64,000 bases of DNA, taken from NCBI GenBank assembly GCA_017484065.1, contig JAFUTX010000009.1:23952-87951 (forward strand), given 5' to 3'. Position 1 is the first letter of the stretch; each line of letters opens with the position of its first letter. The stretch is from Bacilli bacterium (GTDB lineage: Bacteria; Bacillota_I; Bacilli_A; RF39; UBA660). Made by a program: the position numbers and the translations under genes. The notes beneath the pieces are model-generated. The model was not told the origin of the DNA and ran no database searches. It saw nothing but the letters and a program-made list of their open reading frames with translations. This document shows positions 1-24,649 of this stretch, one piece after another.

Positions 1-483
1 TTCTGTTCCATAAATTGGAGCAATCATACCAACAATCATTGAACCAAAGATAGTAGCAAATGCTTGTAATTTAGTAGTTCCACTCCTTAATAAAACGCTT
101 ATTAAGAAAGGTACAAACACAAGTAATGCTAATGTTTGAGTAAGTAATGCAGTTAACACAACTATAATTAATGAGATAATAGGAATAAATATTTTCTTTT
201 TATCTTCTATTTTTTTAGCTAAAGTAACTACTAATTTTTGATATCCAGTAGTTCTATTTAATACACCATAACATCCAGCTAAGAAAATTAAATAAACAAT
301 TTTATCTAAGCTGAAATATATAGCATAATATAGTAATACAGGTATATCACTAAATCCGATACGTTTTAAATCCATATCTTGAAAAGTTGTCCCACTAAAT
401 GATCCAGTATGGAATATCCATGTCATGATAATAGCAAGTATAGCTATAACACCAATGACTTTTACTAACTTATTTTTTTTCAT
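1..483 (-). CDS. Polytopic membrane protein (putative transporter), N-terminal part only; gene continues beyond the window start
   Basis: ATG at 483-481 preceded by GGGAGG RBS. Translation MKKNKLVKVIGVIAILAII... is hydrophobic and multi-TM. Not in the ORF track because it is truncated by the window edge. Confidence 0.4.
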   Translation of the reverse strand, partial: MKKNKLVKVIGVIAILAIIMTWIFHTGSFSGTTFQDMDLKRIGFSDIPVLLYYAIYFSLDKIVYLIFLAGCYGVLNRTTGYQKLVVTLAKKIEDKKKIFIPIISLIIVVLTALLTQTLALLVFVPFLISVLLRSGTTKLQAFATIFGSMIVGMIAPIYGTE

Positions 484-523
484 ATATTTCCTCCCTATTT
501 AAAATTATAGCTCAAAAATCCCA

Positions 524-548
524 TAAAAAAAAGACTTTTCGTCTTTTA
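524..548 (-). terminator. Rho-independent terminator downstream of lysS
   Basis: Minus strand reads AAGAC-GAAAA-GTCTT followed by a T8 run. The stem is short (5 bp). Confidence 0.45.
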
Positions 549-574
549 ATAGGCATTTTTTGGCATTTTTTTAG

Positions 575-2044
575 CTAATTTTGTGGTTTCATTGTTGGGA
601 ATAATATAACATCTCTAATTGATGGTACATCATATGCAATCATCATTAATCTATCAATTCCAAAACCTAGTCCAGATATTGGAGGCATTCCTGTTTCCAT
701 AGCAAGAAGATAATCTTCATCTAAATCCATAGTTTCATCATCACCTTCAGCCTTAGCCTTTAATTGTTCTTCAAAAGTATTTCTTTGAATTTCTGGATTT
801 ACTAACTCAGAATAAGCATTACATATTTCACTACCACAAACTACTACTTGGAAACAATCTACTATATTACTATTATTATCGTTTCTTCTAGCTAATGGTT
901 TTAACATAGCTGGATAATTATACATAATAGTTGGTTCTATAATATTAGCTCTAATTAACTTTTTATATAAGAAGTCAGTTAATTGAGATACAGATTTATA
1001 TTCAATCATATCATTATAAGTAAATAATCCTTTATCTACTACTTTTTCCTTGTATTTATCAACATCTACTTCGTTTAAGAAATCAAATCCTAATATTTCA
1101 GTAAGCTTTTCAATGTAATTAATTCTATTATATTCACTTTTACCAAAATCTAGTTCATGTCCTTGATAATTTATAACAGTATTACCAGTTAAGAATTTAA
1201 TTGATTCTGATAAGAATTTTTGAAAAAATTTAATATTATCCTCAAAATCCCAGTAAGATGCATACCACTCTACTTGGGTAAATTCAGGACTATGTTCAGT
1301 ATCCATACCTTCATTTCTGAAACATTTAGATACTTCATATACACGATCAAATCCACCAGCAATACACTCTTTTAAATAACACTCTGGAGCAATTCTTAAA
1401 TTACAATCTAAGTCAAGGGCATTATAATGAGTAAAAAAAGGTTTTGCAGTTGCACCAGATACACTAGTTTGAACAATTGGAGTTTCAACTTCTAAGAAGC
1501 CATTTTCTGCTAAATAATTACGTAAGAATAAGTAATATTTACTTCTTCCTAAAAAAACTTTACGAGATTCTTCATTAGTTATTAAATCAACATAACGTTC
1601 ACGATACTTTAATTCAGTATCAGTTAAACCATGAAATTTTTCTGGAAGTGGTCTTAAAGCTTTACCTAAAAATTCAAATTCTTCTACTCTTAATGTCTTT
1701 TCACCAGTTTGAGTAGTAAATATTTCACCTTTAGCTCCAATAAAATCACCAGTATCTATTTGCTTTTTAAAGAAAGCATATTTTTCTTCACCTAGTAAAT
1801 CTATTTTCATTTCTAATTGAAAATTATCTTCAATATCTCTGATTTTAACAAATGATAATTTTCCCATTTTACGGGCAAAAACTATTCTACCTGCTACTTT
1901 AACATCAGTAGTACCATCACTTAAATTTTTAGCTTCACTTAAAGTATGTGTTCTTTCATATTTAGCTGGATACGGATTACATACATTGCTAATTTCTTGT
2001 AATTTTTCTCTTCTTACTATTTCTTGTTCACTTAAATTTCTCAT
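575..2044 (-). CDS. lysS: Lysyl-tRNA synthetase, class II
   Basis: 489 aa. N-terminal OB-fold region plus class II motifs (FRNEG, GLGxGxDR). Typical LysRS length and start. Confidence 0.95.
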   Translation of the reverse strand: MRNLSEQEIVRREKLQEISNVCNPYPAKYERTHTLSEAKNLSDGTTDVKVAGRIVFARKMGKLSFVKIRDIEDNFQLEMKIDLLGEEKYAFFKKQIDTGDFIGAKGEIFTTQTGEKTLRVEEFEFLGKALRPLPEKFHGLTDTELKYRERYVDLITNEESRKVFLGRSKYYLFLRNYLAENGFLEVETPIVQTSVSGATAKPFFTHYNALDLDCNLRIAPECYLKECIAGGFDRVYEVSKCFRNEGMDTEHSPEFTQVEWYASYWDFEDNIKFFQKFLSESIKFLTGNTVINYQGHELDFGKSEYNRINYIEKLTEILGFDFLNEVDVDKYKEKVVDKGLFTYNDMIEYKSVSQLTDFLYKKLIRANIIEPTIMYNYPAMLKPLARRNDNNSNIVDCFQVVVCGSEICNAYSELVNPEIQRNTFEEQLKAKAEGDDETMDLDEDYLLAMETGMPPISGLGFGIDRLMMIAYDVPSIRDVILFPTMKPQN

Positions 2045-2093
2045 TGTTATTTTCCTTTCTATGCAATAAAGTAAGGCCTTTATACATCTAAAA

Positions 2094-2121
2094 ATTATAC
2101 TGACTATTTCGAAAAAGTCAA
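2094..2121 (-). promoter_or_regulatory. Sigma-A-type promoter for lysS (TTGACT, 16 nt spacer, TATAAT)
   Basis: Reverse complement of 2094-2121 reads TTGACT tttcgaaatagtcag TATAAT, about 45 nt upstream of the lysS ATG. The AGGAAA RBS follows. Confidence 0.6.
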
Positions 2122-2155
2122 TACTTGTTACTGAAAAACTTAAAAAAAGAAAGAA

Positions 2156-2887
2156 CTATATTCTTCCTCTAATCTTTAGTACAAATACAAATCCTATTAA
2201 TAGAATAAATAATACTATACCTAATAATATAATAATTGTATTTTTTATACTACTATTACTCGAGTTATTGCTTTCTTCTCTATTAGTATTATCTTCTGTT
2301 ATAGTAGAACCACTCTTATCTTTATATTTCAAGTGAATACTACAATTATTTGGATTACTCTTATTAAAGTACCACATTAATGTATTATTTTCATTACGAG
2401 TTGCATTAGTTTCAACAACTTCATATTTATCAGCTAACTCTATTTTAATACTAACTGTATCTAAATTAGGAAATACTTCAAAACATTTAAATTTATTTAA
2501 TGTACTGATATCAACTGTATTATCACTACTATTCATTGTATAATCTATACTTCCAATACATGAAGTAGTTATAAATCCTCTAGATAGTTCACTTATATCT
2601 AAAAATCTATGAGATGATTTAGTAACACTTTTATCACTAGTTACATCAACATAATCATAATAGTGTATTCCCTCAACTTTCTCAGTTACTTCACTTGGAG
2701 GTAACTCATCATAATATAAAGGTATGTTGTTATTACGATATTGATATAAATCTTCGCCATCACCAACATAATATAAAATTGATTCATCAAAATCATCATC
2801 TATTTTTAAACGATATTCAGCAGTACAACCAGTCAATATAAATAAAATACTAACTAAACATATTAATCTTTTCATTATAATATTCAC
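2156..2887 (-). CDS. Lipoprotein with C-terminal TM anchor; last gene of the T4SS-like module
   Basis: 243 aa. Signal peptide with LTGC lipobox, Asn/Ser-rich body and a C-terminal hydrophobic helix followed by basic residues. Immediately adjoins the hydrolase gene, so probably co-transcribed. Confidence 0.5.
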   Translation of the reverse strand: MNIIMKRLICLVSILFILTGCTAEYRLKIDDDFDESILYYVGDGEDLYQYRNNNIPLYYDELPPSEVTEKVEGIHYYDYVDVTSDKSVTKSSHRFLDISELSRGFITTSCIGSIDYTMNSSDNTVDISTLNKFKCFEVFPNLDTVSIKIELADKYEVVETNATRNENNTLMWYFNKSNPNNCSIHLKYKDKSGSTITEDNTNREESNNSSNSSIKNTIIILLGIVLFILLIGFVFVLKIRGRI

Positions 2888-5803
2888 CTATTTTCCATAA
2901 TACTTTCTTAAATATTCATCCCAATCGACATTAGCTTCTACCAAATAAATCTTGGCATTGGTAAATCTCCCATAAGGAGGAAGTGATAAAGCACTTTTTT
3001 CTACTGGAGCATACACGTCAACTTGATTAGTTGCTAATCCTCCACCAGTATCACTAATATAGAAATATTTATTATTGGCATAAGTAGAAGAATCTGTTTC
3101 TATGTATATTACACTGCCATCTCCGACCCAACTACCTTTAGTAGCAACTTTACCTTTCTCAAGCAGTTCTCCATGCCGATCTAACTTACCACCTTCCATA
3201 GCTGAACCATCACCATTATAGTAAGTAATAATTCCCTGGTCAGTTAATAATCTAAAACCATCTTTATTCGGAGCACTTGCTTGTTCATACTTAAGTAATA
3301 AATCACCATAATTATTAACAATTACTGTTGTAATATCTTCTGCTATTTTATCTCTTTTATTAATGAAATTATTCATTGCAGTTCCATTATCATAAAATTC
3401 CGTTTCTAAATAAGTCATTGGTATACCCTTATCAATAAAGAACTTATAATCATCTAATCCACTAGGTTGATCTTGACACCCAATTTTACCATAACCAGTA
3501 TTTTTAGTTACAGCACTGATTATTTCGTCATCTACAGAAAGGCGAGAATATCCTGGCGAATAGCATGTTGTAGTACCAGTAGCAGTATGATTACCACTAG
3601 CATTAAAATGCAGCTCCATTACATATGAATAATCATTCCAATTAATACTTTGAAAACTAGCAGTATTATTGACTCTTTCATTTCTAAATGAAGCACAATC
3701 ACTACCATCATCACTTAATAATTCATTAGCAATATCAGCTTCTATTCCAGCATTTGCTAAAGCTTTTTGAATTGATTTTGCAAACTTTCTTGTTTCAACT
3801 TCTTCAGCATATCCACTAGAAGCTGTAACTCCACGACATTCACTTACTTGCGCTTGACCAGTAGATGTCGGTCCACCATCTTTTGTATGATTACAATAAT
3901 TATCTTTACCATTACAAGTTCCATTAGATGAATGCCCTGCTATTAACAATACTTTAGACATAGCTGCTACTGAATTTGAGCAATTTGAATTTGAACTATT
4001 TCTTCTAATTGTTTCAACATCTACATTACTAACATCTACACCAGTTACAGCCGAAAATTCTGTTTTATAAGCTTGAACATCTATCATATTATCTTCATTA
4101 GTATAATAACTATCCATATTTACTATTCCGAAAGTTCTTCCCTTTTCAATAGAAGTGGGATTTTTAGCAGCACCAACATGTTTAGATACTAACAAACCAT
4201 AAGTAAAATCTTGTTCTTCCGCTGTATAGATATCATCTCCATCAACACCTACTATTAACATAACGTGTCCGGTGCCTTGGGTTAGTACCAAATCTCCAGG
4301 CTTAGCGCTACAATTTGATGTACACCAATTATTAGAAAATTTAGTATACATTTCACTTGTCCCTTGACCAACATAGTTAAAACCACCATTTTTTAATGAC
4401 CAAGACACAAAACCTGAACAATCCAAAGCTGAATTTTGGCCAGCCCAATTTGGATTAGCACCTAATTGTTGATATTTTCCTCCCCAATCATATTCTAAAT
4501 TATATCCAGTAAGTTCTGGATAATAAACTGACAAAGCTAGTGCTGCAGCTACAACACCTTCTCGAGTTCCAATACCAGCACTTGCAACTTCATTAAATAG
4601 ATAAGTATTAAATTCATTTAAACTTGAACCTTTATTTTCTAAAGCTTTTGCAAAAGTAGTAGTTCCATTAGTAACAGTATAATCTTTAGAACTTATAGTT
4701 CCAATATAATTACTAGATGATCCCATGGCAATAGTTGCACCACTACCACTAGAACTAGCATTAATTGAATAATACTCAATATCATTACCATAATAATATG
4801 ATAATAATTCTTTATAATTCATACCTTTTTCCGTAGCAAGATAATAGGCTCCATATTGGCTCATACCTCGTCCATGTCCACCAGCCCCTACAGCTCTATA
4901 AGTAGCTGGTACATTATGTTCATTTACCCAACTAACTGGTATTTGTTGATCTTGTTGAGCCAAAGTATAAACAGCTGAATTAACTTCTTTTACATAAAAT
5001 GCATCGTATTCTGTACTAATTAAAGACCCATTACGCATTAATACTACACCACTAGTTTCACGAGCAGCTGATAAAAAAGCTTCATCATTAGTAGCACTAA
5101 ATACTTGAGTAGCAGTACTATTACCTATACTACAATCACTACCTACTCTATTTAAAACATAGGTACGAGCAGCAATAGCAAAAGCTTTTAAAGTATCCGG
5201 GGAATCACTAAATAATCCAACTTCACGTGATAAAACTCCTGCTACATAATCATCCATTTCATATCTAGAACCATCAACTGTAATTTCTTTACACTGAGCT
5301 TGATAATAGTTATAATTATTTGAACTACATCCATAATCATCAGCAAGTTCGTAACCTGACATAATTAATATCAACATAATTATAACTATTATTATAATAA
5401 TAACAGCCAATACCCATGGATTAGCAGCAATAAATTTTAATAATGCCGATTTTGCTTTTTCTTCTACAACACTTTTTGCTTTATCAACCGCCATGTTTTT
5501 TGCAGAATCTGCATTATCTTGTGCTGTTTCATTTACTTGTTCTTTTTGATCGTTTTCAGTATTGTTAATATTTTCATCTTCTACAACATCATCAACTTGT
5601 TCATTTACTATTTCTTCTTCATTTTGTAATTCTTCATTTACATTATTTCCATATTCTTCATTAGTATCAGCAACTACTTTTTGTTGAATATCTTTATTTT
5701 TTCTAAAAAATTTAGGTGAAGTATTACTAGCCACTTCATCACGACGATTTATATCTCTACGACGATTTATTCTATCAATCGCATTTTTATTGTTTTGTGC
5801 CAT
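2888..5803 (-). CDS. Conjugation-associated multidomain peptidoglycan hydrolase (SpoIID/LytB-like, NlpC/P60, Amidase_3-like, 3D domain)
   Basis: 971 aa. Acidic N-terminal region then one TM (AVIIIIIVIIMLILIM). SpoIID/LytB motif GHGRGMSQYGA. NlpC/P60 catalytic-Cys context DCSGFVSWSL with downstream His region. Amidase_3-like segment (LLIAGHS...E...ELHFNAS). C-terminal 3D-like Asp-rich segment. Sits where CwlT/TcpG/Orf14 sits in Gram-positive T4SS operons. Confidence 0.75.
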   Translation of the reverse strand: MAQNNKNAIDRINRRRDINRRDEVASNTSPKFFRKNKDIQQKVVADTNEEYGNNVNEELQNEEEIVNEQVDDVVEDENINNTENDQKEQVNETAQDNADSAKNMAVDKAKSVVEEKAKSALLKFIAANPWVLAVIIIIIVIIMLILIMSGYELADDYGCSSNNYNYYQAQCKEITVDGSRYEMDDYVAGVLSREVGLFSDSPDTLKAFAIAARTYVLNRVGSDCSIGNSTATQVFSATNDEAFLSAARETSGVVLMRNGSLISTEYDAFYVKEVNSAVYTLAQQDQQIPVSWVNEHNVPATYRAVGAGGHGRGMSQYGAYYLATEKGMNYKELLSYYYGNDIEYYSINASSSGSGATIAMGSSSNYIGTISSKDYTVTNGTTTFAKALENKGSSLNEFNTYLFNEVASAGIGTREGVVAAALALSVYYPELTGYNLEYDWGGKYQQLGANPNWAGQNSALDCSGFVSWSLKNGGFNYVGQGTSEMYTKFSNNWCTSNCSAKPGDLVLTQGTGHVMLIVGVDGDDIYTAEEQDFTYGLLVSKHVGAAKNPTSIEKGRTFGIVNMDSYYTNEDNMIDVQAYKTEFSAVTGVDVSNVDVETIRRNSSNSNCSNSVAAMSKVLLIAGHSSNGTCNGKDNYCNHTKDGGPTSTGQAQVSECRGVTASSGYAEEVETRKFAKSIQKALANAGIEADIANELLSDDGSDCASFRNERVNNTASFQSINWNDYSYVMELHFNASGNHTATGTTTCYSPGYSRLSVDDEIISAVTKNTGYGKIGCQDQPSGLDDYKFFIDKGIPMTYLETEFYDNGTAMNNFINKRDKIAEDITTVIVNNYGDLLLKYEQASAPNKDGFRLLTDQGIITYYNGDGSAMEGGKLDRHGELLEKGKVATKGSWVGDGSVIYIETDSSTYANNKYFYISDTGGGLATNQVDVYAPVEKSALSLPPYGRFTNAKIYLVEANVDWDEYLRKYYGK

Positions 5804-5828
5804 AATACTTCACCACCTTTATTGCTTT

Positions 5829-7613
5829 CTAGAAGCCTCCTCCTGCTCCAAATGAATCTAATTCTTCAGCAGTAACTACTACATTTATTCTCATTCTTCT
5901 TGAACCACAAATGAATAATCCTTCACCTTGGTTATAATATTTTATACTATTCTTTTCACTATCATTTAAATCTATTAATCTTGCTAAATCATCTACTGCT
6001 TGTTTTTTTAATCCCATTACTAAGTAATAAGATGCATTATCAAATATTGCTTTACCATGAACTAAAACATTAGGTGCAGCAAAGTCAGTAGGTTGTTGTG
6101 TAATGATTATAGTACCAGTATTATACTTTCTACTACGTCTTTGTATTTGAGCTAAGAATTCAGCTCCAAGTTCATTTGCACCAGTAAGAAGTACGTGAGC
6201 TTCATCTACCATCATTACTGTATTAATACTTTTATCTAAGCACATACCCCAAGCATATTTTAAAATATTAAAGAATAAAGCATTTTTTATATTAACATCA
6301 CTATTCATTAACTCTCTTATATTAAATACAACAAAGTTACTTTGAATATTTAGAGTTGTATGACCTGTAAAATAATATCTTAATTCATTTACTAATGGTC
6401 TTACTTTTAACTCTAATCTTTCCATTATATTTTTTTCTTGACTAGCCTCAGGCATAGCAAGTAAACGTCCCTTTATAGTAGCATATACGTCATCAAATGT
6501 AGGAAAGTCACTTGATTTAAATTGTGTAAAATCTGTATTAAAATCTATTTTAAATCTTTTATATGTATCTTGTACTACTTCACTGAACATTGTAAGTACA
6601 TCTTCTTCAATACTTGGAACATAATACTTCATAAATGCTTTTAATTGTTGCAATGTTCTAGTAAGAATTGTATATCCTAAACCTTGAGCAATTTCTTCTT
6701 CATCAGCATCTACTACGATTTCAAGAGGATTGATAAGTCCAAAGTTACCGCCTTTACCTAAATCGATAAAGTCTCCTCGCATAATACGTGCCATATCTTC
6801 AAGTTCTCCCTCAGGGTCTATACAAATAACACGACATCCATTACGGATATGATTTCTTAAAAGAAGCTTAGCTGCTGTAGATTTACCACTACCACTTGAA
6901 CCAAGTAATATCATATTAGCATTATTACGATTAAATTCCTTTTTTACTTGATACAAGAATTGATTAAATAAGATAACTCCACCAGAGAAATCAACACCAA
7001 ATAATGTAGCATTGCCTGGATCTTTAATACTATCAAACACAAATGGATACATAGCTGCTACAGTAATTGAAGGTATTGGTGTTCCTACTCTATTTTCAAT
7101 ATCTTGTTTAGGAAATATTGGTATTATAGATTTAAGAACTTTTTCTTGTTCAAACATTAATGGAACTCCACGCATTCCCATACCATCTAAATAATTACGT
7201 ACTTGAATTTTCTTTAAGTCTAATTCTTCTTTACTATCAGCAGTTATCATAACATGCATTTGAAAATCAAAAATTCTTGCTTGAGTAGCTGCTAATGTTT
7301 GAACAAATTTATCAATTGATTCGTAATCTTGGCGAATACGCTCTTGCATAGTTCTATCTTTTTCAGTTTGATATCTGTTTTTCAAATCAGCTATTTCTTT
7401 ATTTAGCATTTTTTGAACTGTTGAAAAATCTATAGGAATATGCTTAGCAACTACTTTAACACCATTTATGCTAGTAATATCTGAAAGATATCCTACTGGA
7501 ATACTTTTAGGATAACTAACTATAGATAAAATTGTACAATTTTTTCCACCTATAATAAATTCAGTTGGTTTAAAATCTAAACCTTTAGGTGCTACTTCAC
7601 TTTTGAAAGCCAT
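5829..7613 (-). CDS. VirB4/TraE/ConE-family conjugative ATPase, C-terminal approx 590 aa (ATPase domain)
   Basis: Walker A LLGSSGSGKST and Walker B-like MMVDEAH. N-terminus begins with the VirB4 SIVSYPKSIPVGYL-type segment. Overlaps the upstream ORF at a TAATG junction. Confidence 0.8.
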   Translation of the reverse strand: MAFKSEVAPKGLDFKPTEFIIGGKNCTILSIVSYPKSIPVGYLSDITSINGVKVVAKHIPIDFSTVQKMLNKEIADLKNRYQTEKDRTMQERIRQDYESIDKFVQTLAATQARIFDFQMHVMITADSKEELDLKKIQVRNYLDGMGMRGVPLMFEQEKVLKSIIPIFPKQDIENRVGTPIPSITVAAMYPFVFDSIKDPGNATLFGVDFSGGVILFNQFLYQVKKEFNRNNANMILLGSSGSGKSTAAKLLLRNHIRNGCRVICIDPEGELEDMARIMRGDFIDLGKGGNFGLINPLEIVVDADEEEIAQGLGYTILTRTLQQLKAFMKYYVPSIEEDVLTMFSEVVQDTYKRFKIDFNTDFTQFKSSDFPTFDDVYATIKGRLLAMPEASQEKNIMERLELKVRPLVNELRYYFTGHTTLNIQSNFVVFNIRELMNSDVNIKNALFFNILKYAWGMCLDKSINTVMMVDEAHVLLTGANELGAEFLAQIQRRSRKYNTGTIIITQQPTDFAAPNVLVHGKAIFDNASYYLVMGLKKQAVDDLARLIDLNDSEKNSIKYYNQGEGLFICGSRRMRINVVVTAEELDSFGAGGGF

Positions 7614-8209
7614 TATGCCATCACCGTCCCAAAATCAGTACTTACGCGATCATTAAAGAAATTATCCAATAACATTCTTAAATCATCATTGCTAACTTGA
7701 CTTGAATTAAGTCCACAATTAGCTAAAGAGGAAATCATATTATGCAAATTCTTTTGGATTAATTCAGGTCTTTTTTCTTTAAATAGAATAAAGTATTCAG
7801 TATCAACTACATTATAAGCTGCAGTCATAAACATATTTGCTTTATTTATATCTTGCATAATGATTTTACGAGATACTGCATCTTGAGTATTATTATATAA
7901 AACTTGTAATTGAGAAATGTACATATTTATATCTACAGGTCTATCAGCAATAATTAGCCAAAACTCATAATCTATCATATTATAAAATGTTTGTAATTGA
8001 TAAATTATATTATCTTGGGCACCTTGATCTAGTATAAATATATTTTTAGGTGCTACTTTAATACCAGTAACAAATTCACCATTTTCTAGTTCAATCATGC
8101 CATTAACAATTTGTTTTAGTGGTAGCCAATCTTCAGTATATGGGGAAGTTAAATTTTTATTTTTCTTCATGAATACTCCATCCTTTCCAATAATATCTTC
8201 TTCTTTCAA
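7613..8209 (-). CDS. VirB4-family ATPase N-terminal domain fragment (198 aa), separate ORF that appears to have split from the downstream ATPase ORF
   Basis: Ends ...DFGTVMA* and overlaps the ATG of the next ORF (MAFK...) by one base. Combined length of about 790 aa matches single-chain VirB4, Orf16, ConE and TcpF. Confidence 0.55.
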   Translation of the reverse strand: MKEEDIIGKDGVFMKKNKNLTSPYTEDWLPLKQIVNGMIELENGEFVTGIKVAPKNIFILDQGAQDNIIYQLQTFYNMIDYEFWLIIADRPVDINMYISQLQVLYNNTQDAVSRKIIMQDINKANMFMTAAYNVVDTEYFILFKEKRPELIQKNLHNMISSLANCGLNSSQVSNDDLRMLLDNFFNDRVSTDFGTVMA

Positions 8210-8471
8210 TAAAGAATTTAATTATATTAGTAATTAATTGCATTACGTTATGATAATGAGGTACAGGTAGTACCAAAAAACCAGATATTAATGCTGGTGA
8301 AAGTATAAGAATAGCATTCCATATACTACTATTAACTCCACTAATTAATAATAACATTACAAATGTTAAGACTATACCAGTTCCAAATATAGCTAAGTCT
8401 ATGCCAGTAAAGAAACCAAGTATTAGCATTTGTTTCTTTGAGTTAGCTGGTATTAAATAATCGTTATACAC
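8157..8471 (-). CDS. Small 2-3 TM membrane protein, VirB3/Orf17/ConD-like candidate
   Basis: 104 aa. GTG start 7 nt after an AGGAGG RBS. Two long hydrophobic helices. Located between the VirB6-like and VirB4-like genes. Confidence 0.45.
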   Translation of the reverse strand: MYNDYLIPANSKKQMLILGFFTGIDLAIFGTGIVLTFVMLLLISGVNSSIWNAILILSPALISGFLVLPVPHYHNVMQLITNIIKFFIERRRYYWKGWSIHEEK

Positions 8472-8489
8472 CTTTTTATTCCTCCTTTA

Positions 8490-18176: not shown

Positions 18177-19643
18177 TTATTTTATTTCTTTTAATTTTTC
18201 CCATATTTTAACCATAGCATAAGTATCTAATTCACAATATTTAAGTAAATTATGTCTCATAACTTCTTGTTCTTCTTTACTTAAATTACTTAAGTTAGCA
18301 TACGTATTCATAGCTTCACTACCATTATGTACTCCTTCTAGGTTGTGATAATCTAAACTTGGATCATCTTTAAATAAAGCAGGTAGTACATATTTAATTG
18401 AATAAGAACCATGCATATCTTTAGTATAGTATTCTCTATTTTTAAATGGAATCATTAAATCATACATATTATCATGAATGTTCATTAAATGTTTACTTAA
18501 GTCCGGATATATTCTAGCCAAATTTTTAATAACTGACTTTTCAAAGCTCATATTATAAGCAATTGTACATCCATCCATAGGTATATCATTAACTAAGCTT
18601 TCTGCTAATCTTCTTCTTGGATCAATACCTGCATCTGCTAAAAATTCTTTATGTTTTAAAGTACCATTTTCACTATCAATGTAATGAAGTGAATATTGAA
18701 ATGGAACTTGCATATATGGTTTTATATAATCATATTCTGGTATTGATTGTTGATATGTTTCAAAATCTAAGAAATATAAAGGATAATATAGGGTATCTAA
18801 AAAATTTTTTATACTATCTTTATTTATATAATCATCTTTATCATATAGTTCATACTCTATTTGTTGTTTGTATTTAGAATCAATATCACTATTTAATAAA
18901 TCATCATAGCTATATATTCCTTCACTATATAATTTGAATTTAGTAGAATTACGCATTAATCTTATATTAAATACATTATTTTTTGGTAAATGTTTACTAC
19001 AATATTTAAAAAATGGACAATCATATGGTTTAACACAATTAATACTTATATCATTAGGTATTTCTTCTTTATTTTCCATATATTCATTTATTTCTTTTAT
19101 TCTTGTTTTAACTTCTTCTTGTTTTAATATAATCTCATCAGTTACATCATTAATTTTAAATAGTTCTTGGAGATTTAAATCACCTATTCTTTCATAGAAA
19201 GGATTTATATGAACAATACATGCTTTAGTAACATTTAATCCTAAATTAGTTAAAACATAGTATTGATAAGCAATATCATCTTTATATATATCTTTTATTT
19301 CAGTAGAACTTTTAACTTCATATATTTCATAGTTATTATCATTCTTTTTTAAAATATCAACACTACAAAAATTATTATTATAATTAAAAGATGCTTCAGT
19401 AATAATACACTCTTTATTATTTAGTGCTTCTTTGGTATCACTTATCATTTTATTTAAGTTTTCATTAAATTCAATATCTATATACTCACCAAATAATTTT
19501 TTAGCATACTCTCCGACAAGAGATCCATTATCTAATACTGAATCGTTACTTACATCCATTTTTTCTTCTGGCTTATTCTTTTGTAACCATAACATTTTTT
19601 TACATTGGACACCATTACAATATTTCGATTTTGATAAATTCAT
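18177..19643 (-). CDS. DUF2779-family protein (putative nuclease-like with Cys cluster)
   Basis: N-terminus MNLSKSKYCNGVQCKKMLWL is characteristic of DUF2779. Later CVKPYDCPFFKYC cysteine cluster. Confidence 0.5.
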   Translation of the reverse strand: MNLSKSKYCNGVQCKKMLWLQKNKPEEKMDVSNDSVLDNGSLVGEYAKKLFGEYIDIEFNENLNKMISDTKEALNNKECIITEASFNYNNNFCSVDILKKNDNNYEIYEVKSSTEIKDIYKDDIAYQYYVLTNLGLNVTKACIVHINPFYERIGDLNLQELFKINDVTDEIILKQEEVKTRIKEINEYMENKEEIPNDISINCVKPYDCPFFKYCSKHLPKNNVFNIRLMRNSTKFKLYSEGIYSYDDLLNSDIDSKYKQQIEYELYDKDDYINKDSIKNFLDTLYYPLYFLDFETYQQSIPEYDYIKPYMQVPFQYSLHYIDSENGTLKHKEFLADAGIDPRRRLAESLVNDIPMDGCTIAYNMSFEKSVIKNLARIYPDLSKHLMNIHDNMYDLMIPFKNREYYTKDMHGSYSIKYVLPALFKDDPSLDYHNLEGVHNGSEAMNTYANLSNLSKEEQEVMRHNLLKYCELDTYAMVKIWEKLKEIK

Positions 19644-19695
19644 AACTACACCTTCTTAAAAAGAGTATAACAAAAACTTTTGTTATACTCCATAG

Positions 19696-21363
19696 TTAAT
19701 TTTGTCTCATACCTCTTCTTTGGCCACTTTGCATGTCTTGGTTATTACCACCATTTTGGTTACCTCGCATCATACCACCGCCTGGGCCACCTTGCATACC
19801 ACCATTACCACTATTAGTTACATTATCAGTTACCTCTACAGTAGTTACAACTTCACCACCAATTTCTAAATCATAACTCTTACCAGTTTCTAACTTACTA
19901 GATGATATAATTATTGAATTATATTGTTTACTTGGTTTATAAGTAATACCACCAAAGGTAAATTCGTCACTATAGTAATTTGATAGATTAATTAAAACAC
20001 TAACTTGATTTGCAGATGTAGCATTTTGAGACATGCCTGATGATCCAACAGCAATTAATGTTCCTCCAGTAATTTCCATAGTACCATTATAATCTAATGC
20101 TCCATTACCACTATTAGTTGGACCATCAACATATATTGTACCACCAGTTATTTTTATAGAACCATTACTATCTAAACCATCACCATCAGCATTTACCGAT
20201 ACATTACCACCATTAATAGTTAAATAACCATCTGTTGATGCAAACATATCCATTCTACCATTACCACCTGTATCATTACCACCAGATACGTTTACTCCAT
20301 CATCACTAGCTTTTATATTAATAGTACCATCATTGATTGTAATATCAGTAGCTTCTATACCCTCATAAGATTTAATTATGTTAATAGTTCCATTATCAAT
20401 AATTAACTTATCATCAGCATGAATACCATCATCACCACTACTTAACTCAAATGTACCATTAGTAATTGAAATACTAGCATTTGAATGAAGTGCATCATCT
20501 GTTGTATTTATAGTAAATGTACCATTTTCTATAACCATATTACTGGCAGCTTTTATACCTTTAGTACTTATTGTTGTATCAGTATTACTTGTTTTTAAAT
20601 TAAATGTTCCTCCACTAATTTTTAATGTACTGATACTATCAATAGCATCACCTTTACTAGTAATATTGATATTACCATCTATTATAGTAATAGAACCTTT
20701 TTCTTCTTCATTAGTAGTTTTAATTCCATCACCATCACTAGTAATACTTATATTACCATCATTAATTGTAATACTATCTTTTCCTCTAATTCCATCATCA
20801 CTTGTTATAATATTTAATGTACCACTATTAACTACTAAGTCATCTTTTGATACTATACCATCATAGTTACTTGTTAAATTAAGTGTGCCATCTCCTTCAA
20901 TTAATAAATTATCTTTCGAATAAATTGCTCCATCTAATTCTTCAGTAGTTGTTGATACTATTTTATTATTACCAACTAAATTAATATAAACATTTTTAGC
21001 ATTTTCTACATTAATAGCAGGTCCACTACTATTCGTAATAGAAACATTATCAAGTATTAATTTAACATTATCACTAGTATTAATAGTTATACTACCATTT
21101 TTTAAAGTACCAGTTATTGTATAAACACCTGCTTTAGTTATTGATGTATTATCACTATCTAAATTAATAGAATATTTTTCATAACTAGACCAATCAATAT
21201 TTACATCCATTTCATTATTGTTACTAACTGATTCGCTTATGCTAGTTGATGTATTTTCATCATTACTATCCTTTTTAAATATAGTAAAATATAATATTCC
21301 AGTTAAACATATAATAGCTAAAATTACTATTATAATTATTAAACTTTTTTTATTATTATTCAT
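19696..21363 (-). CDS. Membrane-anchored beta-helix carbohydrate-binding protein (Cthe_2159-like repeats)
   Basis: N-terminal TM anchor. About 20 tandem approx 22-aa repeats of the form (T/S)I(N/T)(D/G)G(T/N)(I/F)NI(T/K)S.DDG(I/V). Gly/Gln/Met-rich C-terminal tail. Confidence 0.55.
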   Translation of the reverse strand: MNNNKKSLIIIIVILAIICLTGILYFTIFKKDSNDENTSTSISESVSNNNEMDVNIDWSSYEKYSINLDSDNTSITKAGVYTITGTLKNGSITINTSDNVKLILDNVSITNSSGPAINVENAKNVYINLVGNNKIVSTTTEELDGAIYSKDNLLIEGDGTLNLTSNYDGIVSKDDLVVNSGTLNIITSDDGIRGKDSITINDGNISITSDGDGIKTTNEEEKGSITIIDGNINITSKGDAIDSISTLKISGGTFNLKTSNTDTTISTKGIKAASNMVIENGTFTINTTDDALHSNASISITNGTFELSSGDDGIHADDKLIIDNGTINIIKSYEGIEATDITINDGTINIKASDDGVNVSGGNDTGGNGRMDMFASTDGYLTINGGNVSVNADGDGLDSNGSIKITGGTIYVDGPTNSGNGALDYNGTMEITGGTLIAVGSSGMSQNATSANQVSVLINLSNYYSDEFTFGGITYKPSKQYNSIIISSSKLETGKSYDLEIGGEVVTTVEVTDNVTNSGNGGMQGGPGGGMMRGNQNGGNNQDMQSGQRRGMRQN

Positions 21364-22025
21364 TATAATTCTTGTTCAACTAAAGGATGAGTGATAGATA
21401 TTTTTAAGTTACCATTTTTTACTCTTAATTTATCTATAAACTCTTTTTCCTTTATACCTTTCTTAACATTAATATTGTATGTAAGTTCAAACATCGAACC
21501 CATATTAGTTGTTTTAGCTTGAATTAATTCATATTCATTTAAATATTTATTAAACTCATCTTTAAAACAATCTTCATAATCTAAATTTTCTGGAATTATT
21601 ATTTTTAATACTTTAGTATCTATTTTACTAGCTCCATAATTTGTAACATGTAATATCAATATCATTAAAGATACTGCTAGAGTAAATGCAACTGCAAAGC
21701 CTATATAACCTGTACCTACTGCTAGACCTACTGCCATAGCAAAGAAGACATCCATTATTTCTTTAGAATTACCTGGAATACTTCTAAATCTAACTAAAGA
21801 AAATGCTCCGACAATTGCTACTGATGTACCTAAATTACCATTTACAAGTAGTATTACCATTGTAACTAATGTAGGTAAAATAAATAATGTACTAATAAAA
21901 TTTTTATTTGATCTTGTTGTTCTCATATGTAAGAACGATATTATAAATCCTAAGATTAATGCTGTAACAATGCATATTGCAAAATTACTTAATGATAATG
22001 TTGTATCTAATATACTATTAAACAT
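21363..22025 (-). CDS. DUF4956-like membrane protein
   Basis: 220 aa. Four TM helices then a soluble C-terminal domain. Overlaps the upstream VTC-like gene, suggesting an operon. Confidence 0.45.
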   Translation of the reverse strand: MFNSILDTTLSLSNFAICIVTALILGFIISFLHMRTTRSNKNFISTLFILPTLVTMVILLVNGNLGTSVAIVGAFSLVRFRSIPGNSKEIMDVFFAMAVGLAVGTGYIGFAVAFTLAVSLMILILHVTNYGASKIDTKVLKIIIPENLDYEDCFKDEFNKYLNEYELIQAKTTNMGSMFELTYNINVKKGIKEKEFIDKLRVKNGNLKISITHPLVEQEL

Positions 22026-22740
22026 ATACTTCCTCCTTTTTGTTTTTCATGTATATTTTTCCAATTTTTGAAAACGATGTTGGATATATCTTTAACTCTG
22101 ACAAAATGTTAGTAAACCATAATGGTAATGCTCCTAAAGATTTAATTTCCATTATATATGTATTATTCTTAAAGTATTCATCTCCACTATTTCCATAATC
22201 TAATCTTAAATTATCTGTTCTACTAATCAATTTTTTATCAAAAGTTATTCTTAAATCTTTATTATCTTTATCATAATAAGAATTTCGATTATAACTTACA
22301 AAAAATTTTGGTTTTAAATCATATTTTTTAAAACAATAATCTATTTCATTCATTATCTGTTCATCTTTAATAGGTATTATTCCTTTTTCAAAATAGTCAT
22401 AAAATTCTTGTAGTGTTATTTCTATTCTTCTTTTATTAACAATATCGTTATATTTCTTTTTTATTTCTAAAAAGACAGTATCGTTTAATGATGGTATGCC
22501 ATAACTTCTTAATCTTATTTTTTCTTTATATATAGGTTTTTCTATAGAATTAATTATTAAATCATAATTATCATTATCAAAATATATATTATTGATATTA
22601 CTCTCAAAATAAGCATCTTTTTCTAAATGTTCATCAATACTATTCATTAAACTTTGATATTGTTCTTCATTTAAAAGATATTTCTTCTCTATTCTTTTAA
22701 ATATATTTATATTAATATACAATACCTCCCTTCGTTTCAA
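22018..22740 (-). CDS. VTC-domain (polyphosphate polymerase-like) protein
   Basis: N-terminal EKKYLL segment and overall size fit VTC-domain proteins, which commonly partner with DUF4956. Start codon uncertain. Confidence 0.4.
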   Translation of the reverse strand: MKRREVLYININIFKRIEKKYLLNEEQYQSLMNSIDEHLEKDAYFESNINNIYFDNDNYDLIINSIEKPIYKEKIRLRSYGIPSLNDTVFLEIKKKYNDIVNKRRIEITLQEFYDYFEKGIIPIKDEQIMNEIDYCFKKYDLKPKFFVSYNRNSYYDKDNKDLRITFDKKLISRTDNLRLDYGNSGDEYFKNNTYIMEIKSLGALPLWFTNILSELKIYPTSFSKIGKIYMKNKKEEVYV

Positions 22741-22888
22741 TAAGAATATAATCTATAAACATTGAAGTTTTATTGAAATTTTTTAAAACTATTTAATCAC
22801 TCCTTCTTCATTTGATAATTGAAGTATATTAAAGAAAGATTAAAATAAAATTGAAATTAAAAAAAATTATTCTTTTTTAGAATAACTT

Positions 22889-24037
22889 TTAAATTGTTAA
22901 TTTATATGGTTTATTTGCTGAACCATTTGAATTTGGTCCAGCTACTATTTTAACTGTTGATTTAAGGTATGCTACTGGACGAATGTCGAATAAATAATAT
23001 GATGAAGTATCGTAAATATGCCCTAAAGTATTAATATAAATTATATTAGTTGTATAATTAGCAGCTGATGTCATTGTCCATTGATGCCAACTTGAATCTA
23101 ATAACCAATCACTATTTCTGCAAGGTTCATTTGTACTACTATCCCAATTACGAAGTGCTATTGTTCTACAACTATTTCCTGATACTATTCCGCTACTTGC
23201 ATAACCATAATCACTTGGATACATTAAACCTAAATTACCTGACCATGTTATCAAATTATTGTTACCAACATTTGTTCTTTCTGCTTCATACCATTTTGAG
23301 TTTATCATTGTTGTACCATCAAAACTTCCATTGTTATTCCATGTATATCCTCCTAGATAATATGTTGCACTTTCTATTAAGTTTTTAGATATATTATTTA
23401 AACCATTAGTTGTAAAGTCAATTGCAGAGGTTGGATAATCTCGACCTTGTCCTGTAGCATATCCATGATATGCAGCATGAGTTCCATTATTGTAATAATT
23501 TGTTAATACTTCATTAATTGTACTATTTGGCCAATTATTATTATATCTTCTAGATGAACATGTATATGTTCCATCTCCATTATCTGTCCAGTTTTCATCT
23601 GCACAACTATCATAGAAAGGGAAGTTTCCTAAGCTTTCAGCTCTAATAAGTTTTACTCTACTAGCCCCATCTCCTGATACTTCTCCACCATCTATATTAT
23701 TCATTACACCAATAATGCGCCATAGTTCATTATTAAACTTAACATAATTATTCGGATTCGCTCCCATATATCTTATATTTTCATCTGGTGTATCATCTAT
23801 AAACATTGTATCAGGGTTATCTTCAACTATACTTGTTAAATACTCTACGGCATTAACTGGTTCTACTACTTTACCATTTATCATTTCATAGCTATCACTT
23901 ACTACTTCAAATTTAGCATAACTGTTGTATAGTTTTATTCCAATTACAATTAATGTTAATAAACATATACTTACTAACAATGTATTTCTTTTACGATTAT
24001 CTTTTATTCGATAATCAAATCTATGTAGGCGACTCAT
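22889..24037 (-). CDS. Membrane-anchored secreted protein, paralog A of the 49025-50179 gene
   Basis: 382 aa. Signal-anchor TM at residues 20-40. Near-identical to paralog B over the first approx 200 aa, diverged mid-region, conserved C-terminal motif PVAYLKS.VKIVAGPNS.GSA.KPYKLTI. Confidence 0.6.
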   Translation of the reverse strand: MSRLHRFDYRIKDNRKRNTLLVSICLLTLIVIGIKLYNSYAKFEVVSDSYEMINGKVVEPVNAVEYLTSIVEDNPDTMFIDDTPDENIRYMGANPNNYVKFNNELWRIIGVMNNIDGGEVSGDGASRVKLIRAESLGNFPFYDSCADENWTDNGDGTYTCSSRRYNNNWPNSTINEVLTNYYNNGTHAAYHGYATGQGRDYPTSAIDFTTNGLNNISKNLIESATYYLGGYTWNNNGSFDGTTMINSKWYEAERTNVGNNNLITWSGNLGLMYPSDYGYASSGIVSGNSCRTIALRNWDSSTNEPCRNSDWLLDSSWHQWTMTSAANYTTNIIYINTLGHIYDTSSYYLFDIRPVAYLKSTVKIVAGPNSNGSANKPYKLTI

Positions 24038-24480: not shown

Positions 24481-24613
24481 TATTATAGATAAAATATTGT
24501 GAATTTCAACCGATTCGACAAATGTTGTAATCATAAAAAAAGAAATAGCAATTGCTATCTCTTAGATATTATTCTTCAACTTATTTAATCTAAATCATTA
24601 AACATAATTGAAG

Positions 24614-24649
24614 GAAAAAATATGTACTAAATAATACCTGTGTACATAT
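24614..24649 (-). terminator. Rho-independent terminator of the YihY-like gene
   Basis: 8-bp stem ATATGTAC/GTACATAT followed by a T6 run on the minus strand, directly after the stop codon. Confidence 0.55.

What the first reader, a model, noticed from the sequence alone, without database searches (positions are those of the whole stretch)
7590..7640. VirB4 ATPase split into two ORFs at an overlapping TAATG junction that looks like an 8-bp duplication
The 198-aa ORF ends ...DFGTVMA* and the 594-aa ATPase ORF starts MAFKSEV... one base later (GTG ATG GCA TAA TGG CTT TC). Removing the 8 nt ATGGCATA restores a continuous ...DFGTVMAFKSEV... reading frame of about 790 aa, the normal VirB4 length. 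The repeated ATGGC(A/T) suggests a slippage duplication. The consequence is either an inactivating frameshift (consistent with a decaying element) or an expressed two-piece VirB4 joined by translational coupling.
Basis: seen in the sequence. Interest (0 to 1): 0.5.

Follow-up and report, generated by a model that had tools for sequence, protein, structure and literature searches.

The report
Naturally two-gene VirB4 (TrsD/TrsE-type)
The "broken" VirB4 secretion ATPase is not broken: it is an old, conserved two-gene version of the protein, as in the staphylococcal plasmid genes trsD and trsE, and the second gene's ribosome-binding site lies inside the end of the first, so the finding is ordinary.

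Summary
The sequence facts are correct. On the minus strand a 198-aa ORF (7613..8209) ends ...DFGTVMA-TAA. A 594-aa ATPase ORF (5829..7613) starts at the overlapping ATG (TAATG).

The split is not a recent duplication, a frameshift or decay. All 84 related loci fetched (80 of them species-representative genomes) are split at the same homologous position. They use four different stop/start geometries and three frame offsets, and none is fused. The 120 best database hits to each piece are stand-alone proteins of 183-214 aa and 583-596 aa. Both pieces are under strong purifying selection (dN/dS 0.00-0.06 in close pairs).

A GGTGA(T) Shine-Dalgarno motif, written in codons that are rare in this 27% GC genome, ends 6-7 nt before the downstream ATG in 80 of 85 loci. 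The "ATGGC repeat" is at chance level (P = 0.21).

The same PrgI/TrsC, TrsD-like, TrsE-like gene order occurs in conjugative plasmids of Bacillus thuringiensis and Staphylococcus aureus (pSK41/pGO1 type). The literature already notes that TrsD resembles the VirB4 N-terminus.

Verdict: a new member of a known kind, of low interest. A side observation: in the window's clade this T4SS module has no adjacent VirD4, relaxase or integrase.

The parts
8157..8471 (-). PrgI/VirB3-like small membrane protein (104 aa), the TrsC equivalent. It is the first of three ORFs that together tile the fused VirB3-VirB4 profile.
   Evidence: Pfam PrgI E 5.9e-4. NF045975 positions 3-97. Found in 83 of 84 related loci at a median 58% identity. 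The same slot is annotated 'PrgI family' in pBLB1_56.
7613..8209 (-). VirB4 N-terminal piece, TrsD-like (198 aa from TTG 8209; 185 aa from ATG 8170, the start used in the NCBI record). It corresponds to the first half of the canonical VirB4 N-terminal domain.
   Evidence: NF045975 positions 92-279, E 3.5e-16. 7519 homolog clusters, and the best 120 are all 183-214 aa with precomputed Pfam PF26593 'TraC-like'. AF2 model pLDDT 76.7. The 14 best Foldseek PDB hits are all TrwK/VirB4 of R388. hhalign to S. aureus TrsD: probability 96.3%, E 1.9e-9.
7620..7625 (-). Shine-Dalgarno motif GGTGAT for the downstream ATPase gene, embedded in the last codons (Thr-Val-Met) of the N piece, with 6 nt between it and the ATG.
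   Evidence: GGG, ACG and GTG are 4.3%, 2.1% and 3.6% of their codon families in the window. GGTGA ends 6-7 nt before the ATG in 80 of 85 loci. The background frequency of GGTGA is 6e-4 per position. AGGTGA, GGAGG and GGTGAT motifs are usual upstream of other genes in the window.
7611..7615 (-). TAATG stop/start overlap: stop of the N piece at 7615..7613, start of the C piece at 7613..7611.
   Evidence: Among 85 loci the junction is TAATG in 35, ATGA in 28, stop+1 nt+ATG in 21 and TAAATG in 1.
5829..7613 (-). VirB4 C piece, TrsE-like ATPase (594 aa). Residues 1 to about 198 are the second half of the N-terminal domain. Residues 199-592 are the C-terminal P-loop ATPase domain (Walker A GSSGSGKS at residue 238, Walker B VMMVDE at residue 466).
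   Evidence: PDB 4AG5 VirB4 CTD E 3.8e-54 over residues 199-592. NF045975 positions 297-890, E 2.6e-103. The best 120 homologs are all 583-596 aa. BLASTP to S. aureus TrsE E 2e-39. Motifs.
8490..10925 (-). VirB6/TrbL-like polytopic membrane protein (811 aa) of the same module.
   Evidence: Weak hits to T4SS_pilin and to the MMCAP2_0566 family. The orthologous slot carries TrbL hits in L001. Found in 65 of 84 loci at a median 37% identity.
2888..5803 (-). Cell-wall hydrolase (971 aa; SpoIID, NlpC/P60-CHAP and Amidase_3 domains), the functional counterpart of VirB1/TrsG.
   Evidence: The same slot holds SpoIID/CHAP proteins in L001 and L003 and a CHAP protein in the S. aureus trs operon.
2156..2887 (-). 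243-aa protein of unknown function that travels with the module.
   Evidence: Proteins of 233-262 aa occupy the same slot in L001, L003 and L025. Found in 18 of 84 loci at a median 28% identity.

Best explanation
This is a natural, ancient two-gene form of the VirB4 type IV secretion ATPase. It is not a mutation.

Gene 1 (198 aa, TrsD-like) encodes the first half of the VirB4 N-terminal domain. Gene 2 (594 aa, TrsE-like) encodes the rest of that domain plus the P-loop ATPase domain. They follow a PrgI/VirB3-like gene, in the same order as trsC-trsD-trsE of pGO1/pSK41 and its counterparts in Bacillus conjugative plasmids. The break lies where fused relatives carry a variable linker of roughly 30-55 residues.

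Shown here: the split is conserved, both pieces are under purifying selection, the pieces are collinear with fused VirB4, and the N piece has the VirB4 N-terminal fold. A GGTGA(T) motif at fixed spacing upstream of the second ATG is conserved in rare codons, while the stop codon position drifts.

Inferred: the two genes are translationally coupled through that Shine-Dalgarno site and the overlapping or abutting stop and start. This would deliver roughly equimolar products, which reassemble non-covalently into a VirB4-like unit. By analogy with R388, where VirB3 wraps the VirB4 N-terminal domain, the N piece would bind the PrgI/VirB3-like membrane protein and anchor the ATPase hexamer to the membrane.
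For: Conservation of the split:
- 198-aa query: 7519 homolog clusters; the best 120 are all 183-214 aa at 63-100% identity.
- 594-aa query: the best 120 are all 583-596 aa at 78-91% identity.
- 497 species-representative genomes encode a close relative.
- All 84 loci fetched are split at the same homologous site, with four geometries and three frame offsets, and none is fused. All complete C genes are 593-595 codons.

Selection: dN/dS is 0.00-0.06 in unsaturated pairs for both pieces. Walker A and B motifs are intact.

Ribosome-binding site: rare codons GGG-ACG-GTG at the junction; GGTGA ends 6-7 nt before the ATG in 80 of 85 loci against a background of 6e-4 per position; SD motifs are the norm in this genome.

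Depth of the architecture:
- Stand-alone homologs persist down to 25-31% identity, and fused relatives appear only at 36% identity or below.
- Distant stand-alone members lie in PrgI | TraC-like | ATPase clusters with a MobL relaxase and VirD4, again with tight junctions and SD-like motifs.
- B. thuringiensis pBLB1_56 has PrgI | 227 aa | 630 aa with a 3-nt gap. An S. aureus plasmid has 'traD' (227 aa) followed by TrsE (670 aa).

Homology: hhalign of the N family gives probability 98.3% against the Bt protein and 96.3%, E 1.9e-9 against TrsD. Intermediate members hit both NF041427 TrsD/TraD and the N-terminal part of VirB4 models.

Fold: the N-piece model matches R388 TrwK/VirB4, and the C piece matches 4AG5.

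[quoted passage not shown] VirB3 wraps the VirB4 N-terminal domain in R388 (PMC9259494).
Against: - There are no expression, proteomic or interaction data. Translational coupling and reassembly of the two pieces are inferences.
- The window's N piece does not itself hit NF041427 TrsD/TraD. A shallow profile of close homologs did not detect S. aureus TrsD (E 0.11). The link needs a more diverse profile and bridging sequences.
- The fold match to TrwK is moderate (TM about 0.45, rmsd 5-6 A).
- The 85 loci are phylogenetically related, so counts of conserved features are not independent events.
- The 16S rRNA 3' end of this organism is not in the window, so complementarity to the SD motif rests on the general Bacillota anti-SD sequence.
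Confidence: 0.88

Rival explanations
1. A recent 8-bp slippage duplication (ATGGCATA) frameshifted an intact gene of about 790 codons, leaving an inactivated VirB4 in a decaying element.
For: Deleting the 8 nt restores one frame, and the fusion is collinear with VirB4. ATGGC occurs twice, 8 nt apart. The window has no VirD4, relaxase or integrase near the module.
Against: The same split is present in 84 of 84 related loci with different junction sequences and frame offsets, and in distant plasmid systems. No fused close homolog appears among the best 120 hits for either piece. dN/dS is well below 1 for both pieces and the ATPase motifs are intact. The repeat is at chance level (P = 0.21). Fused relatives carry a linker of roughly 30-55 residues at the break, not a seamless join.
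Confidence: 0.01
2. A sequencing or assembly error created a false stop in a single VirB4 gene.
For: None specific. The source appears to be a metagenome-assembled genome, where indel errors do occur.
Against: The identical N-piece protein is recorded on 5 contigs from several sources. Independent assemblies of hundreds of species show the split. The SD motif and ATG are conserved at the junction.
Confidence: 0.005
3. Programmed recoding (ribosomal frameshifting or readthrough) at the junction yields a full-length fused VirB4, alone or together with the separate pieces.
For: The genes overlap or abut, and the fusion would be collinear with VirB4.
Against: The required shift differs between lineages: offsets of +1, +2 and 0, the last with an in-frame stop. 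There is no conserved slippery heptamer. What is conserved is an SD motif at initiation spacing and an ATG. In S. aureus the two genes are 20 nt apart.
Confidence: 0.02
4. The split is natural and functional, but the two genes are translated independently, and GGTGAT is simply an ordinary ribosome-binding site without stop-start coupling.
For: SD motifs are ubiquitous in this genome. Some family members have gaps of 3-20 nt between the two genes.
Against: In 85 of 85 loci of this family the stop and start overlap or lie within 1 nt of each other. Such proximity is the classical signature of coupling (established knowledge), but it does not prove it.
Confidence: 0.15

Closest known systems
TrsC-TrsD-TrsE of staphylococcal conjugative plasmids pGO1/pSK41 (MPF_FATA subclass; NCBIfam NF041427 'TrsD/TraD family conjugative transfer protein')
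   Same: The gene order is the same: a small VirB3-like membrane protein, then a protein of about 200-230 aa homologous to the VirB4 N-terminus, then a VirB4-like ATPase of about 600-670 aa that lacks that N-terminal part. A peptidoglycan hydrolase lies nearby. The literature already notes that TrsD resembles the VirB4 N-terminus (PMC12102498).
   Different: Sequence similarity is very remote. The window's N piece does not hit NF041427, and identity between the C piece and TrsE is 24%. In S. aureus the genes are 20 nt apart rather than overlapping. The staphylococcal system lies on a plasmid with a relaxase and a coupling protein, whereas the window's module is flanked by housekeeping genes with no VirD4 in 64 kb.
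Conjugation modules of Bacillus thuringiensis/cereus plasmids (for example pBLB1_56, NZ_CP116331.1)
   Same: The order is PrgI family | 227-aa 'hypothetical protein' | 630-aa DUF87 ATPase with a 3-nt gap. These are the closest annotated relatives of both pieces: about 30% identity for N and 29% for C, with hhalign probability 98.3% for N.
   Different: They are embedded in a complete conjugative set (MobP3 relaxase, VirD4-like, TrbL) on a plasmid. The junction is not overlapping.
Mollicutes ICE VirB4 (Mbov_0397 family, NF045975; 'CDS17' of mycoplasma ICEs)
   Same: This is the best-scoring NCBIfam model for all three ORFs, which tile it collinearly. The neighbouring VirB6-like protein hits a Mycoplasma ICE family, MMCAP2_0566.
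   Different: In that family VirB3, the VirB4 N part and the VirB4 C part form one polypeptide of about 890 aa; here they are three genes. Scores are below the family cut-off (346 bits against 590).
Patescibacteria (CPR) chromosomal T4SS with TrsD next to VirB4 (PMC12102498)
   Same: A TrsD-like protein is encoded beside VirB4 with PrgI/VirB3 and VirB6. The module is chromosomal and widely conserved in reduced-genome bacteria, and the coupling protein is usually not adjacent (compared).
   Different: The phylum is different. No direct sequence comparison with CPR proteins was made here, and there is no functional evidence for the gut Bacilli lineage.
Canonical single-chain VirB4 (TrwK of R388; T. 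pseudethanolicus VirB4, PDB 4AG5)
   Same: The fold of both parts matches, the order of the parts is collinear, and the Walker motifs are present.
   Different: It is one polypeptide of about 800 aa; here there are two, broken in the middle of the N-terminal domain.

Membership tests
VirB4 T4SS ATPase (functional class) | C-terminal P-loop ATPase domain homologous to the VirB4 CTD, with Walker A and B motifs | tested here: met
   4AG5 E 3.8e-54 over residues 199-592. VirB4-type NCBIfam hits. GSSGSGKS at residue 238 and VMMVDE at residue 466.
VirB4 T4SS ATPase (functional class) | VirB4-type N-terminal domain | tested here: met
   It is present but divided between two ORFs. The N piece matches NF045975 positions 92-279 and the TrwK fold. 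The C piece, residues 1 to about 198, continues the profile from position 297.
VirB4 T4SS ATPase (functional class) | Single polypeptide of about 750-900 aa | tested here: not met
   Two ORFs in the window and in 84 of 84 related loci.
VirB4 T4SS ATPase (functional class) | Encoded with other T4SS inner-membrane components (VirB3-like, VirB6-like) | tested here: met
   PrgI-like and VirB6/TrbL-like neighbours.
TrsD/TraD family (NCBIfam NF041427) | Score at or above the curated cut-off (200 bits) against the family model | tested here: not met
   The window's N piece has no hit at E <= 0.01. Intermediate relatives score 30-67 bits. S. aureus TrsD scores 227.6 bits.
TrsD/TraD family (NCBIfam NF041427) | Detectable homology to bona fide TrsD | tested here: met
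   hhalign with the diverse profile A2 against S. aureus TrsD: probability 96.3%, E 1.9e-9 over 152 columns. The shallow profile A1 was not significant (E 0.11).
TrsD/TraD family (NCBIfam NF041427) | Stand-alone protein of about 200-230 aa encoded between a VirB3-like gene and a VirB4-like ATPase gene | tested here: met
   Window ORFs; the same layout in S. aureus, B. thuringiensis, and L085/L087.
Pfam PF26593 'TraC-like' | Match to the Pfam model | tested here: met
   Precomputed PF26593.2 hits on all 120 best homologs, including the 100%-identical P0001. The local Pfam copy does not appear to hold this model, since it gave 0 hits even at E = 10, so the match could not be recomputed.
Mbov_0397 family ICE VirB4 (NF045975, equivalog) | Score at or above 590 bits and a fused VirB3-VirB4 single chain | tested here: not met
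   346, 58 and 20 bits for the three ORFs, which are three separate genes.
Frameshifted pseudogene | Disruption absent from close orthologs, with relaxed selection downstream | tested here: not met
Programmed ribosomal frameshift gene | Conserved slippery site and a constant frame offset across orthologs | tested here: not met
   Frame offsets of +1, +2 and 0 occur in different lineages. What is conserved is an SD motif and an ATG.
Translationally coupled gene pair | Stop and start overlapping or adjacent, with an SD motif inside the upstream gene at initiation spacing | tested here: met
Translationally coupled gene pair | Downstream translation depends on upstream translation | not testable with these tools
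   This needs reporter or ribosome-profiling experiments.

The most novel reading that the evidence does not exclude
In the window's clade of uncultured gut Bacilli (records labelled 'Tenericutes' or 'Mycoplasma sp. CAG:776'; RF39-like by my recollection of GTDB, which I did not test), the split-VirB4 module may be a chromosomally fixed, domesticated T4SS rather than part of a conjugative element.

For this reading:
- The ATPase is 78-91% identical across at least 80 species-level genomes, and 497 such genomes encode a relative, although synonymous sites are saturated.
- The module is flanked by housekeeping genes.
- The clade with the FGTVM[S/N/A]*-TAATG junction has no adjacent VirD4 in 16 of 16 loci with at least 5 kb of downstream flank, against 36 of 37 in sister clades.
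- No relaxase or integrase was seen in three inspected contexts.

This would parallel the Patescibacteria T4SS with TrsD, which was reported essential for an epibiotic lifestyle (PMC12102498). It would imply a function other than conjugation, such as DNA or nutrient uptake or cell-cell interaction.

Against or untested: only about 8 kb of flank was examined in fragmented MAGs; VirD4 and a relaxase could lie elsewhere in the genome; and congruence with the species tree was not tested.
Probability: 0.25. Interest if true: 0.6.

Novelty: new member of a known kind. Interest (0 to 1): 0.15.

Why it matters
**For annotation.** This junction should not be flagged as a pseudogene or "fixed" by merging the ORFs. 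The N piece, now labelled "hypothetical protein", can be named a TrsD-like VirB4 N-terminal-domain protein, and the C piece a TrsE-like VirB4 ATPase.

**For T4SS biology.** It adds a very large, strongly conserved family to the evidence that monoderm VirB4 can work as two chains broken in the middle of the N-terminal domain: thousands of clusters, in at least 497 species-level genomes of uncultured gut Bacilli. It also suggests a concrete role for TrsD, which the literature lists as having no assigned function: it would be the VirB3-binding half of the VirB4 N-terminal domain.

The junction is also a clear example of a C-terminal peptide tail whose conservation is probably driven by an embedded ribosome-binding site. 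None of this is surprising to a specialist.

Tried and rejected
- The local Pfam scan of the N piece gave 0 hits even at E = 10. The PF26593 model seems to be missing from the local copy, so I relied on the precomputed hits.
- A PDB sequence search with the N piece found nothing, so I used structure prediction and Foldseek instead.
- hhalign of the shallow close-homolog profile A1 against S. aureus TrsD was not significant. It became significant only with the diverse profile A2.
- Literature searches for a described "split VirB4" found nothing direct. The 2025 FEMS T4SS review has no mention of it. The 2026 H. pylori ComB paper was irrelevant, because "split" there means a split-luciferase assay or split loci. 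Searches for RF39 together with T4SS found nothing relevant.
- The first staphylococcal plasmid I examined (p59458-1) has a truncated trsD ORF and could not serve as a reference. I used CP030522.1 instead.
- The dN/dS of 1.76 for the L065 N piece was an artefact of my HSP-based trimming; the gene is intact.
- I considered and rejected an ancient 8-bp duplication as a demonstrable origin. The repeat is at chance level, and fused relatives have a long linker at the break. The ultimate origin of the split remains unknown.
- I did not predict the structure of a concatenated N+C chain, because only window or database sequences may be submitted.
Full report
**1. Observation**

The genes lie on the minus strand, which reads ...gat ttt ggg acg gtg atg gca TAA TGg ctt tca aaa gtg....
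- ORF 7613..8209(-) is 198 aa from a TTG start, or 185 aa from the ATG at 8170 used in the NCBI record. It ends DFGTVMA*.
- ORF 5829..7613(-) is 594 aa and starts MAFKSEV.
- The stop TAA (7615-7613) and the start ATG (7613-7611) share one base.
- Removing ATGGCATA would indeed give one frame of 790 codons.

So the described sequence is there. The resemblance to a duplication is weak. ATGGCATA and ATGGCTTT agree at 6 of 8 positions, and three of those are an ATG that is required on both sides.

**2. What the pieces are**

*Collinear tiling of a fused VirB4 model.* Against NCBIfam, three consecutive ORFs tile the 894-position model NF045975 (Mollicutes ICE VirB3-VirB4 fusion) in order:

| ORF | Profile positions | E-value |
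|---|---|---|
| 104 aa, PrgI-like (8157..8471) | 3-97 | 7.9e-5 |
| 198 aa | 92-279 | 3.5e-16 |
| 594 aa | 297-890 | 2.6e-103 |

*The C piece.* Residues 199-592 match the crystal structure of the T. pseudethanolicus VirB4 C-terminal domain (4AG5, E 3.8e-54). Walker A (GSSGSGKS, residue 238) and Walker B (VMMVDE, residue 466) are intact. The C piece therefore also carries about 198 residues of the N-terminal region, and the break lies in the middle of the canonical VirB4 N-terminal domain.

*The N piece.* An AlphaFold2 model has pLDDT 76.7, with the core at about 85-93 and a low-confidence C-terminal tail (about 61 over residues 181-190, about 42 over 191-198). Its 14 best Foldseek PDB hits are all TrwK/VirB4 chains of the R388 T4SS (probability 0.99-1.00, E 5e-5 to 1e-2). 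Unrelated folds start at E > 0.3.

*Collinearity with fused relatives.* A virtual N+C fusion aligns as one HSP across the junction with three fused relatives of 800, 839 and 892 aa (E 4e-96 to 2e-111). These relatives carry a variable, poorly conserved linker of roughly 30-55 residues exactly at the break.

**3. Is the split a lesion or a conserved state?**

*Database hits.* The 198-aa query finds 7519 homolog clusters, and the best 120 (63-100% identity) are all 183-214 aa. The 594-aa query's best 120 hits (78-91% identity) are all 583-596 aa.

*Gene contexts.* L001 and L003 show PrgI-like (about 102 aa) | TraC-like (189 aa) | ATPase (594 aa).

*Systematic junction survey.* A scan of species-representative genomes found 497 that encode a close relative. 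All are uncultured gut Bacilli or 'Tenericutes' MAGs, for example Mycoplasma sp. CAG:776, Ca. Onthocola and Ca. Caccenecus. In all 84 fetched loci plus the window, the gene is split at the same homologous position, and none is fused:

| Junction | Loci |
|---|---|
| TAATG | 35 |
| ATGA | 28 |
| stop + 1 nt + ATG | 21 |
| TAAATG (in frame) | 1 (confirmed) |

So there are three different frame offsets. All complete C genes are 593-595 codons.

*Selection.* dN/dS is 0.00-0.06 for both pieces in unsaturated close pairs, and 0.07-0.22 against the window at saturated dS. The one outlier, the L065 N piece, was an artefact of my trimming.

*The repeat.* A 5-nt ATGNN repeat across the TAATG occurs in 15 of 35 loci, against 12.9 +/- 2.0 expected after shuffling (P = 0.21).

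**4. How the junction works**

The window is 26.8% GC. GGG, ACG and GTG make up only 4.3%, 2.1% and 3.6% of the Gly, Thr and Val codons, yet the N piece ends GGG-ACG-GTG-ATG.

This spells GGTGAT (7625..7620), 6 nt upstream of the downstream ATG. From established knowledge, GGUGAU is complementary to the 5'-GAUCACC-3' stretch of the Bacillota 16S rRNA 3' end. No rRNA gene lies in the window, so this was not checked for this organism.

GGTGA is present in 82 of 85 loci, and in 80 of them it ends 6-7 nt before the ATG, although the stop codon position varies. Its background frequency in the window is 6e-4 per position. AGGTGA, GGAGG and GGTGAT motifs precede most other genes in the window.

The tail of the N piece has low model confidence. 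Its conserved G-T-V-M peptide may therefore largely reflect the embedded ribosome-binding site.

- **Shown:** a conserved SD-like motif at fixed spacing, and stop and start overlapping or within 1 nt in 85 of 85 loci.
- **Inferred:** translational coupling that gives matched amounts of the two chains.

Programmed frameshifting is rejected, because the required shift differs between lineages and the conserved elements are initiation signals.

**5. Comparison with what is known**

*Depth of the architecture.* An exhaustive search of representatives shows stand-alone proteins of about 210-230 aa down to 25-31% identity, and fused relatives only at 36% identity or below.

*Distant stand-alone members.* Two of them lie in PrgI | TraC-like (212-220 aa) | ATPase (612-616 aa) | M23 peptidase clusters. 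One cluster also holds a MobL relaxase, VirD4 and TrbL; the other holds TrbC and TrbL. Their junctions are also tight and carry SD-like motifs.

*Annotated plasmids.*
- The N piece matches 40 records, 36 of them Bacillus and 38 predicted conjugative.
- pBLB1_56 has MobP3 relaxase | VirD4-like | hypothetical | TrbL | PrgI family | 227-aa hypothetical | 630-aa DUF87, with a 3-nt gap between the last two.
- An S. aureus pSK41/pGO1-type plasmid has a 135-aa protein | 'traD' (227 aa) | DUF87 (670 aa, TrsE), with a 20-nt gap.

*Homology tests.*

| Comparison | Result |
|---|---|
| C piece vs TrsE (BLASTP) | E 2e-39 |
| N family (A1) vs the Bt 227-aa protein | probability 98.3%, E 2.5e-14 |
| N family, shallow profile (A1) vs S. 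aureus TrsD | E 0.11, not significant |
| N family, diverse profile (A2) vs S. aureus TrsD | probability 96.3%, E 1.9e-9 |

Intermediate members hit both NF041427 'TrsD/TraD family' and the N-terminal part of VirB4 models. The window's N piece itself does not reach NF041427. It is therefore a remote homolog of TrsD and a functional counterpart, not a member of that subfamily as NCBI defines it.

*Literature.* The architecture is already recognised. [quoted passage not shown] That is the basis for inferring that the stand-alone N piece links the PrgI/VirB3-like protein to the ATPase chain.

**6. Verdict**

The junction is a natural, ancient and selectively maintained two-gene VirB4 of the TrsD/TrsE type. 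The '8-bp duplication / inactivating frameshift / decaying element' reading does not.

Novelty is that of a new, very large member family of a known architecture, and interest is low.

**7. Beyond the finding**

- In this lineage the ATPase is far more conserved (median 80% identity) than its neighbours: VirB6-like 37%, hydrolase 30%, 243-aa protein 28%.
- The outer flanks are housekeeping genes that differ between genomes.
- No relaxase or integrase was seen in three inspected contexts.
- The window has no VirD4 in 64 kb.
- Among loci with at least 5 kb of downstream flank, VirD4 is adjacent in 36 of 37 loci with ATGA, +1 or TAAATG junctions. It is adjacent in only 2 of 18 TAATG loci, and in none of the 16 of the window's FGTVM[S/N/A]* subtype.

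This is compatible with a chromosomally domesticated T4SS, as proposed for Patescibacteria. The evidence is limited to flanks of 8 kb or less in fragmented MAGs, so I record it as the most novel reading not excluded (probability about 0.25).

Noticed in passing
window 1..64000; module at 2156..10925(-); loci L005-L084: The window has no VirD4 coupling protein, relaxase or integrase near the T4SS module. Its flanks are housekeeping genes: LysRS at 575..2044, then a Metallophos protein, UDPGP, CotE and a FIST protein from 11474 onward. Across relatives with at least 5 kb of downstream flank, an adjacent VirD4 tracks the junction class. It is present in 36 of 37 ATGA, +1 or TAAATG loci, in 2 of 18 TAATG loci, and in 0 of 16 loci of the window's FGTVM[S/N/A]* subtype.
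   Followed up: partly
window 5829..7613(-) compared with 8490..10925(-), 2888..5803(-) and 2156..2887(-): Evolutionary rates within one module are very uneven. The ATPase piece has a median 80% identity across species, the N piece 67% and the PrgI-like protein 58%. The VirB6-like protein has 37%, the hydrolase 30% and the 243-aa protein 28%.
   Followed up: no
window 13587..14123(-): There is a clear homolog of the outer spore coat protein CotE (Pfam E 3.6e-45) in a 26.8% GC genome whose relatives are labelled 'Tenericutes' or 'Mycoplasma'. This suggests that the lineage keeps sporulation genes.
   Followed up: no
window 8157..8209(-): The start of the N piece is ambiguous. TTG at 8209 would give a 53-nt overlap with the PrgI-like ORF, and ATG at 8170 a 14-nt overlap, as in L001 and L003. 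Many predicted homologs carry a conserved N-terminal extension (..E.D.IGK.GV..) upstream of the MKNK start. The overlap region may therefore be read in two frames, or the extension may be an artefact of gene calling.
   Followed up: no
L089 (S. aureus p59458-1, NZ_AP024724.1) 2224..2923: In this staphylococcal plasmid the trsD ORF stops after 176 aa, compared with 227 aa in CP030522.1, and the gene is missing from the PLSDB gene table, which omits pseudogenes. This may be a real example of a frameshifted TrsD.
   Followed up: partly
window 31932..32129(-) and 48798..48983(-): Two T-box leaders lie above the Rfam gathering score (125 and 101 bits), upstream of the 1053-aa ORF (28799..31960) and the 145-aa ORF (48310..48747).
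   Followed up: no
P0288, P0362 and P0381 aligned to the window N+C fusion: The fused VirB4 relatives carry a variable insertion of roughly 30-55 residues exactly where this family is split. This marks an inter-subdomain linker as the site that tolerates fission or fusion.
   Followed up: partly
window 8490..10925(-): The 811-aa VirB6-like protein combines a weak T4SS-pilin-like segment (residues 53-116) with a domain of the Mycoplasma ICE family MMCAP2_0566 (residues 326-470). In L007 a separate 255-aa pilin-like gene is present instead.
   Followed up: no
tool libraries: The local Pfam-A copy returned no hit for the N piece even at E = 10, although precomputed annotations list PF26593.2 'TraC-like' for all of its homologs. 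The model appears to be absent from the local copy.
   Followed up: yes
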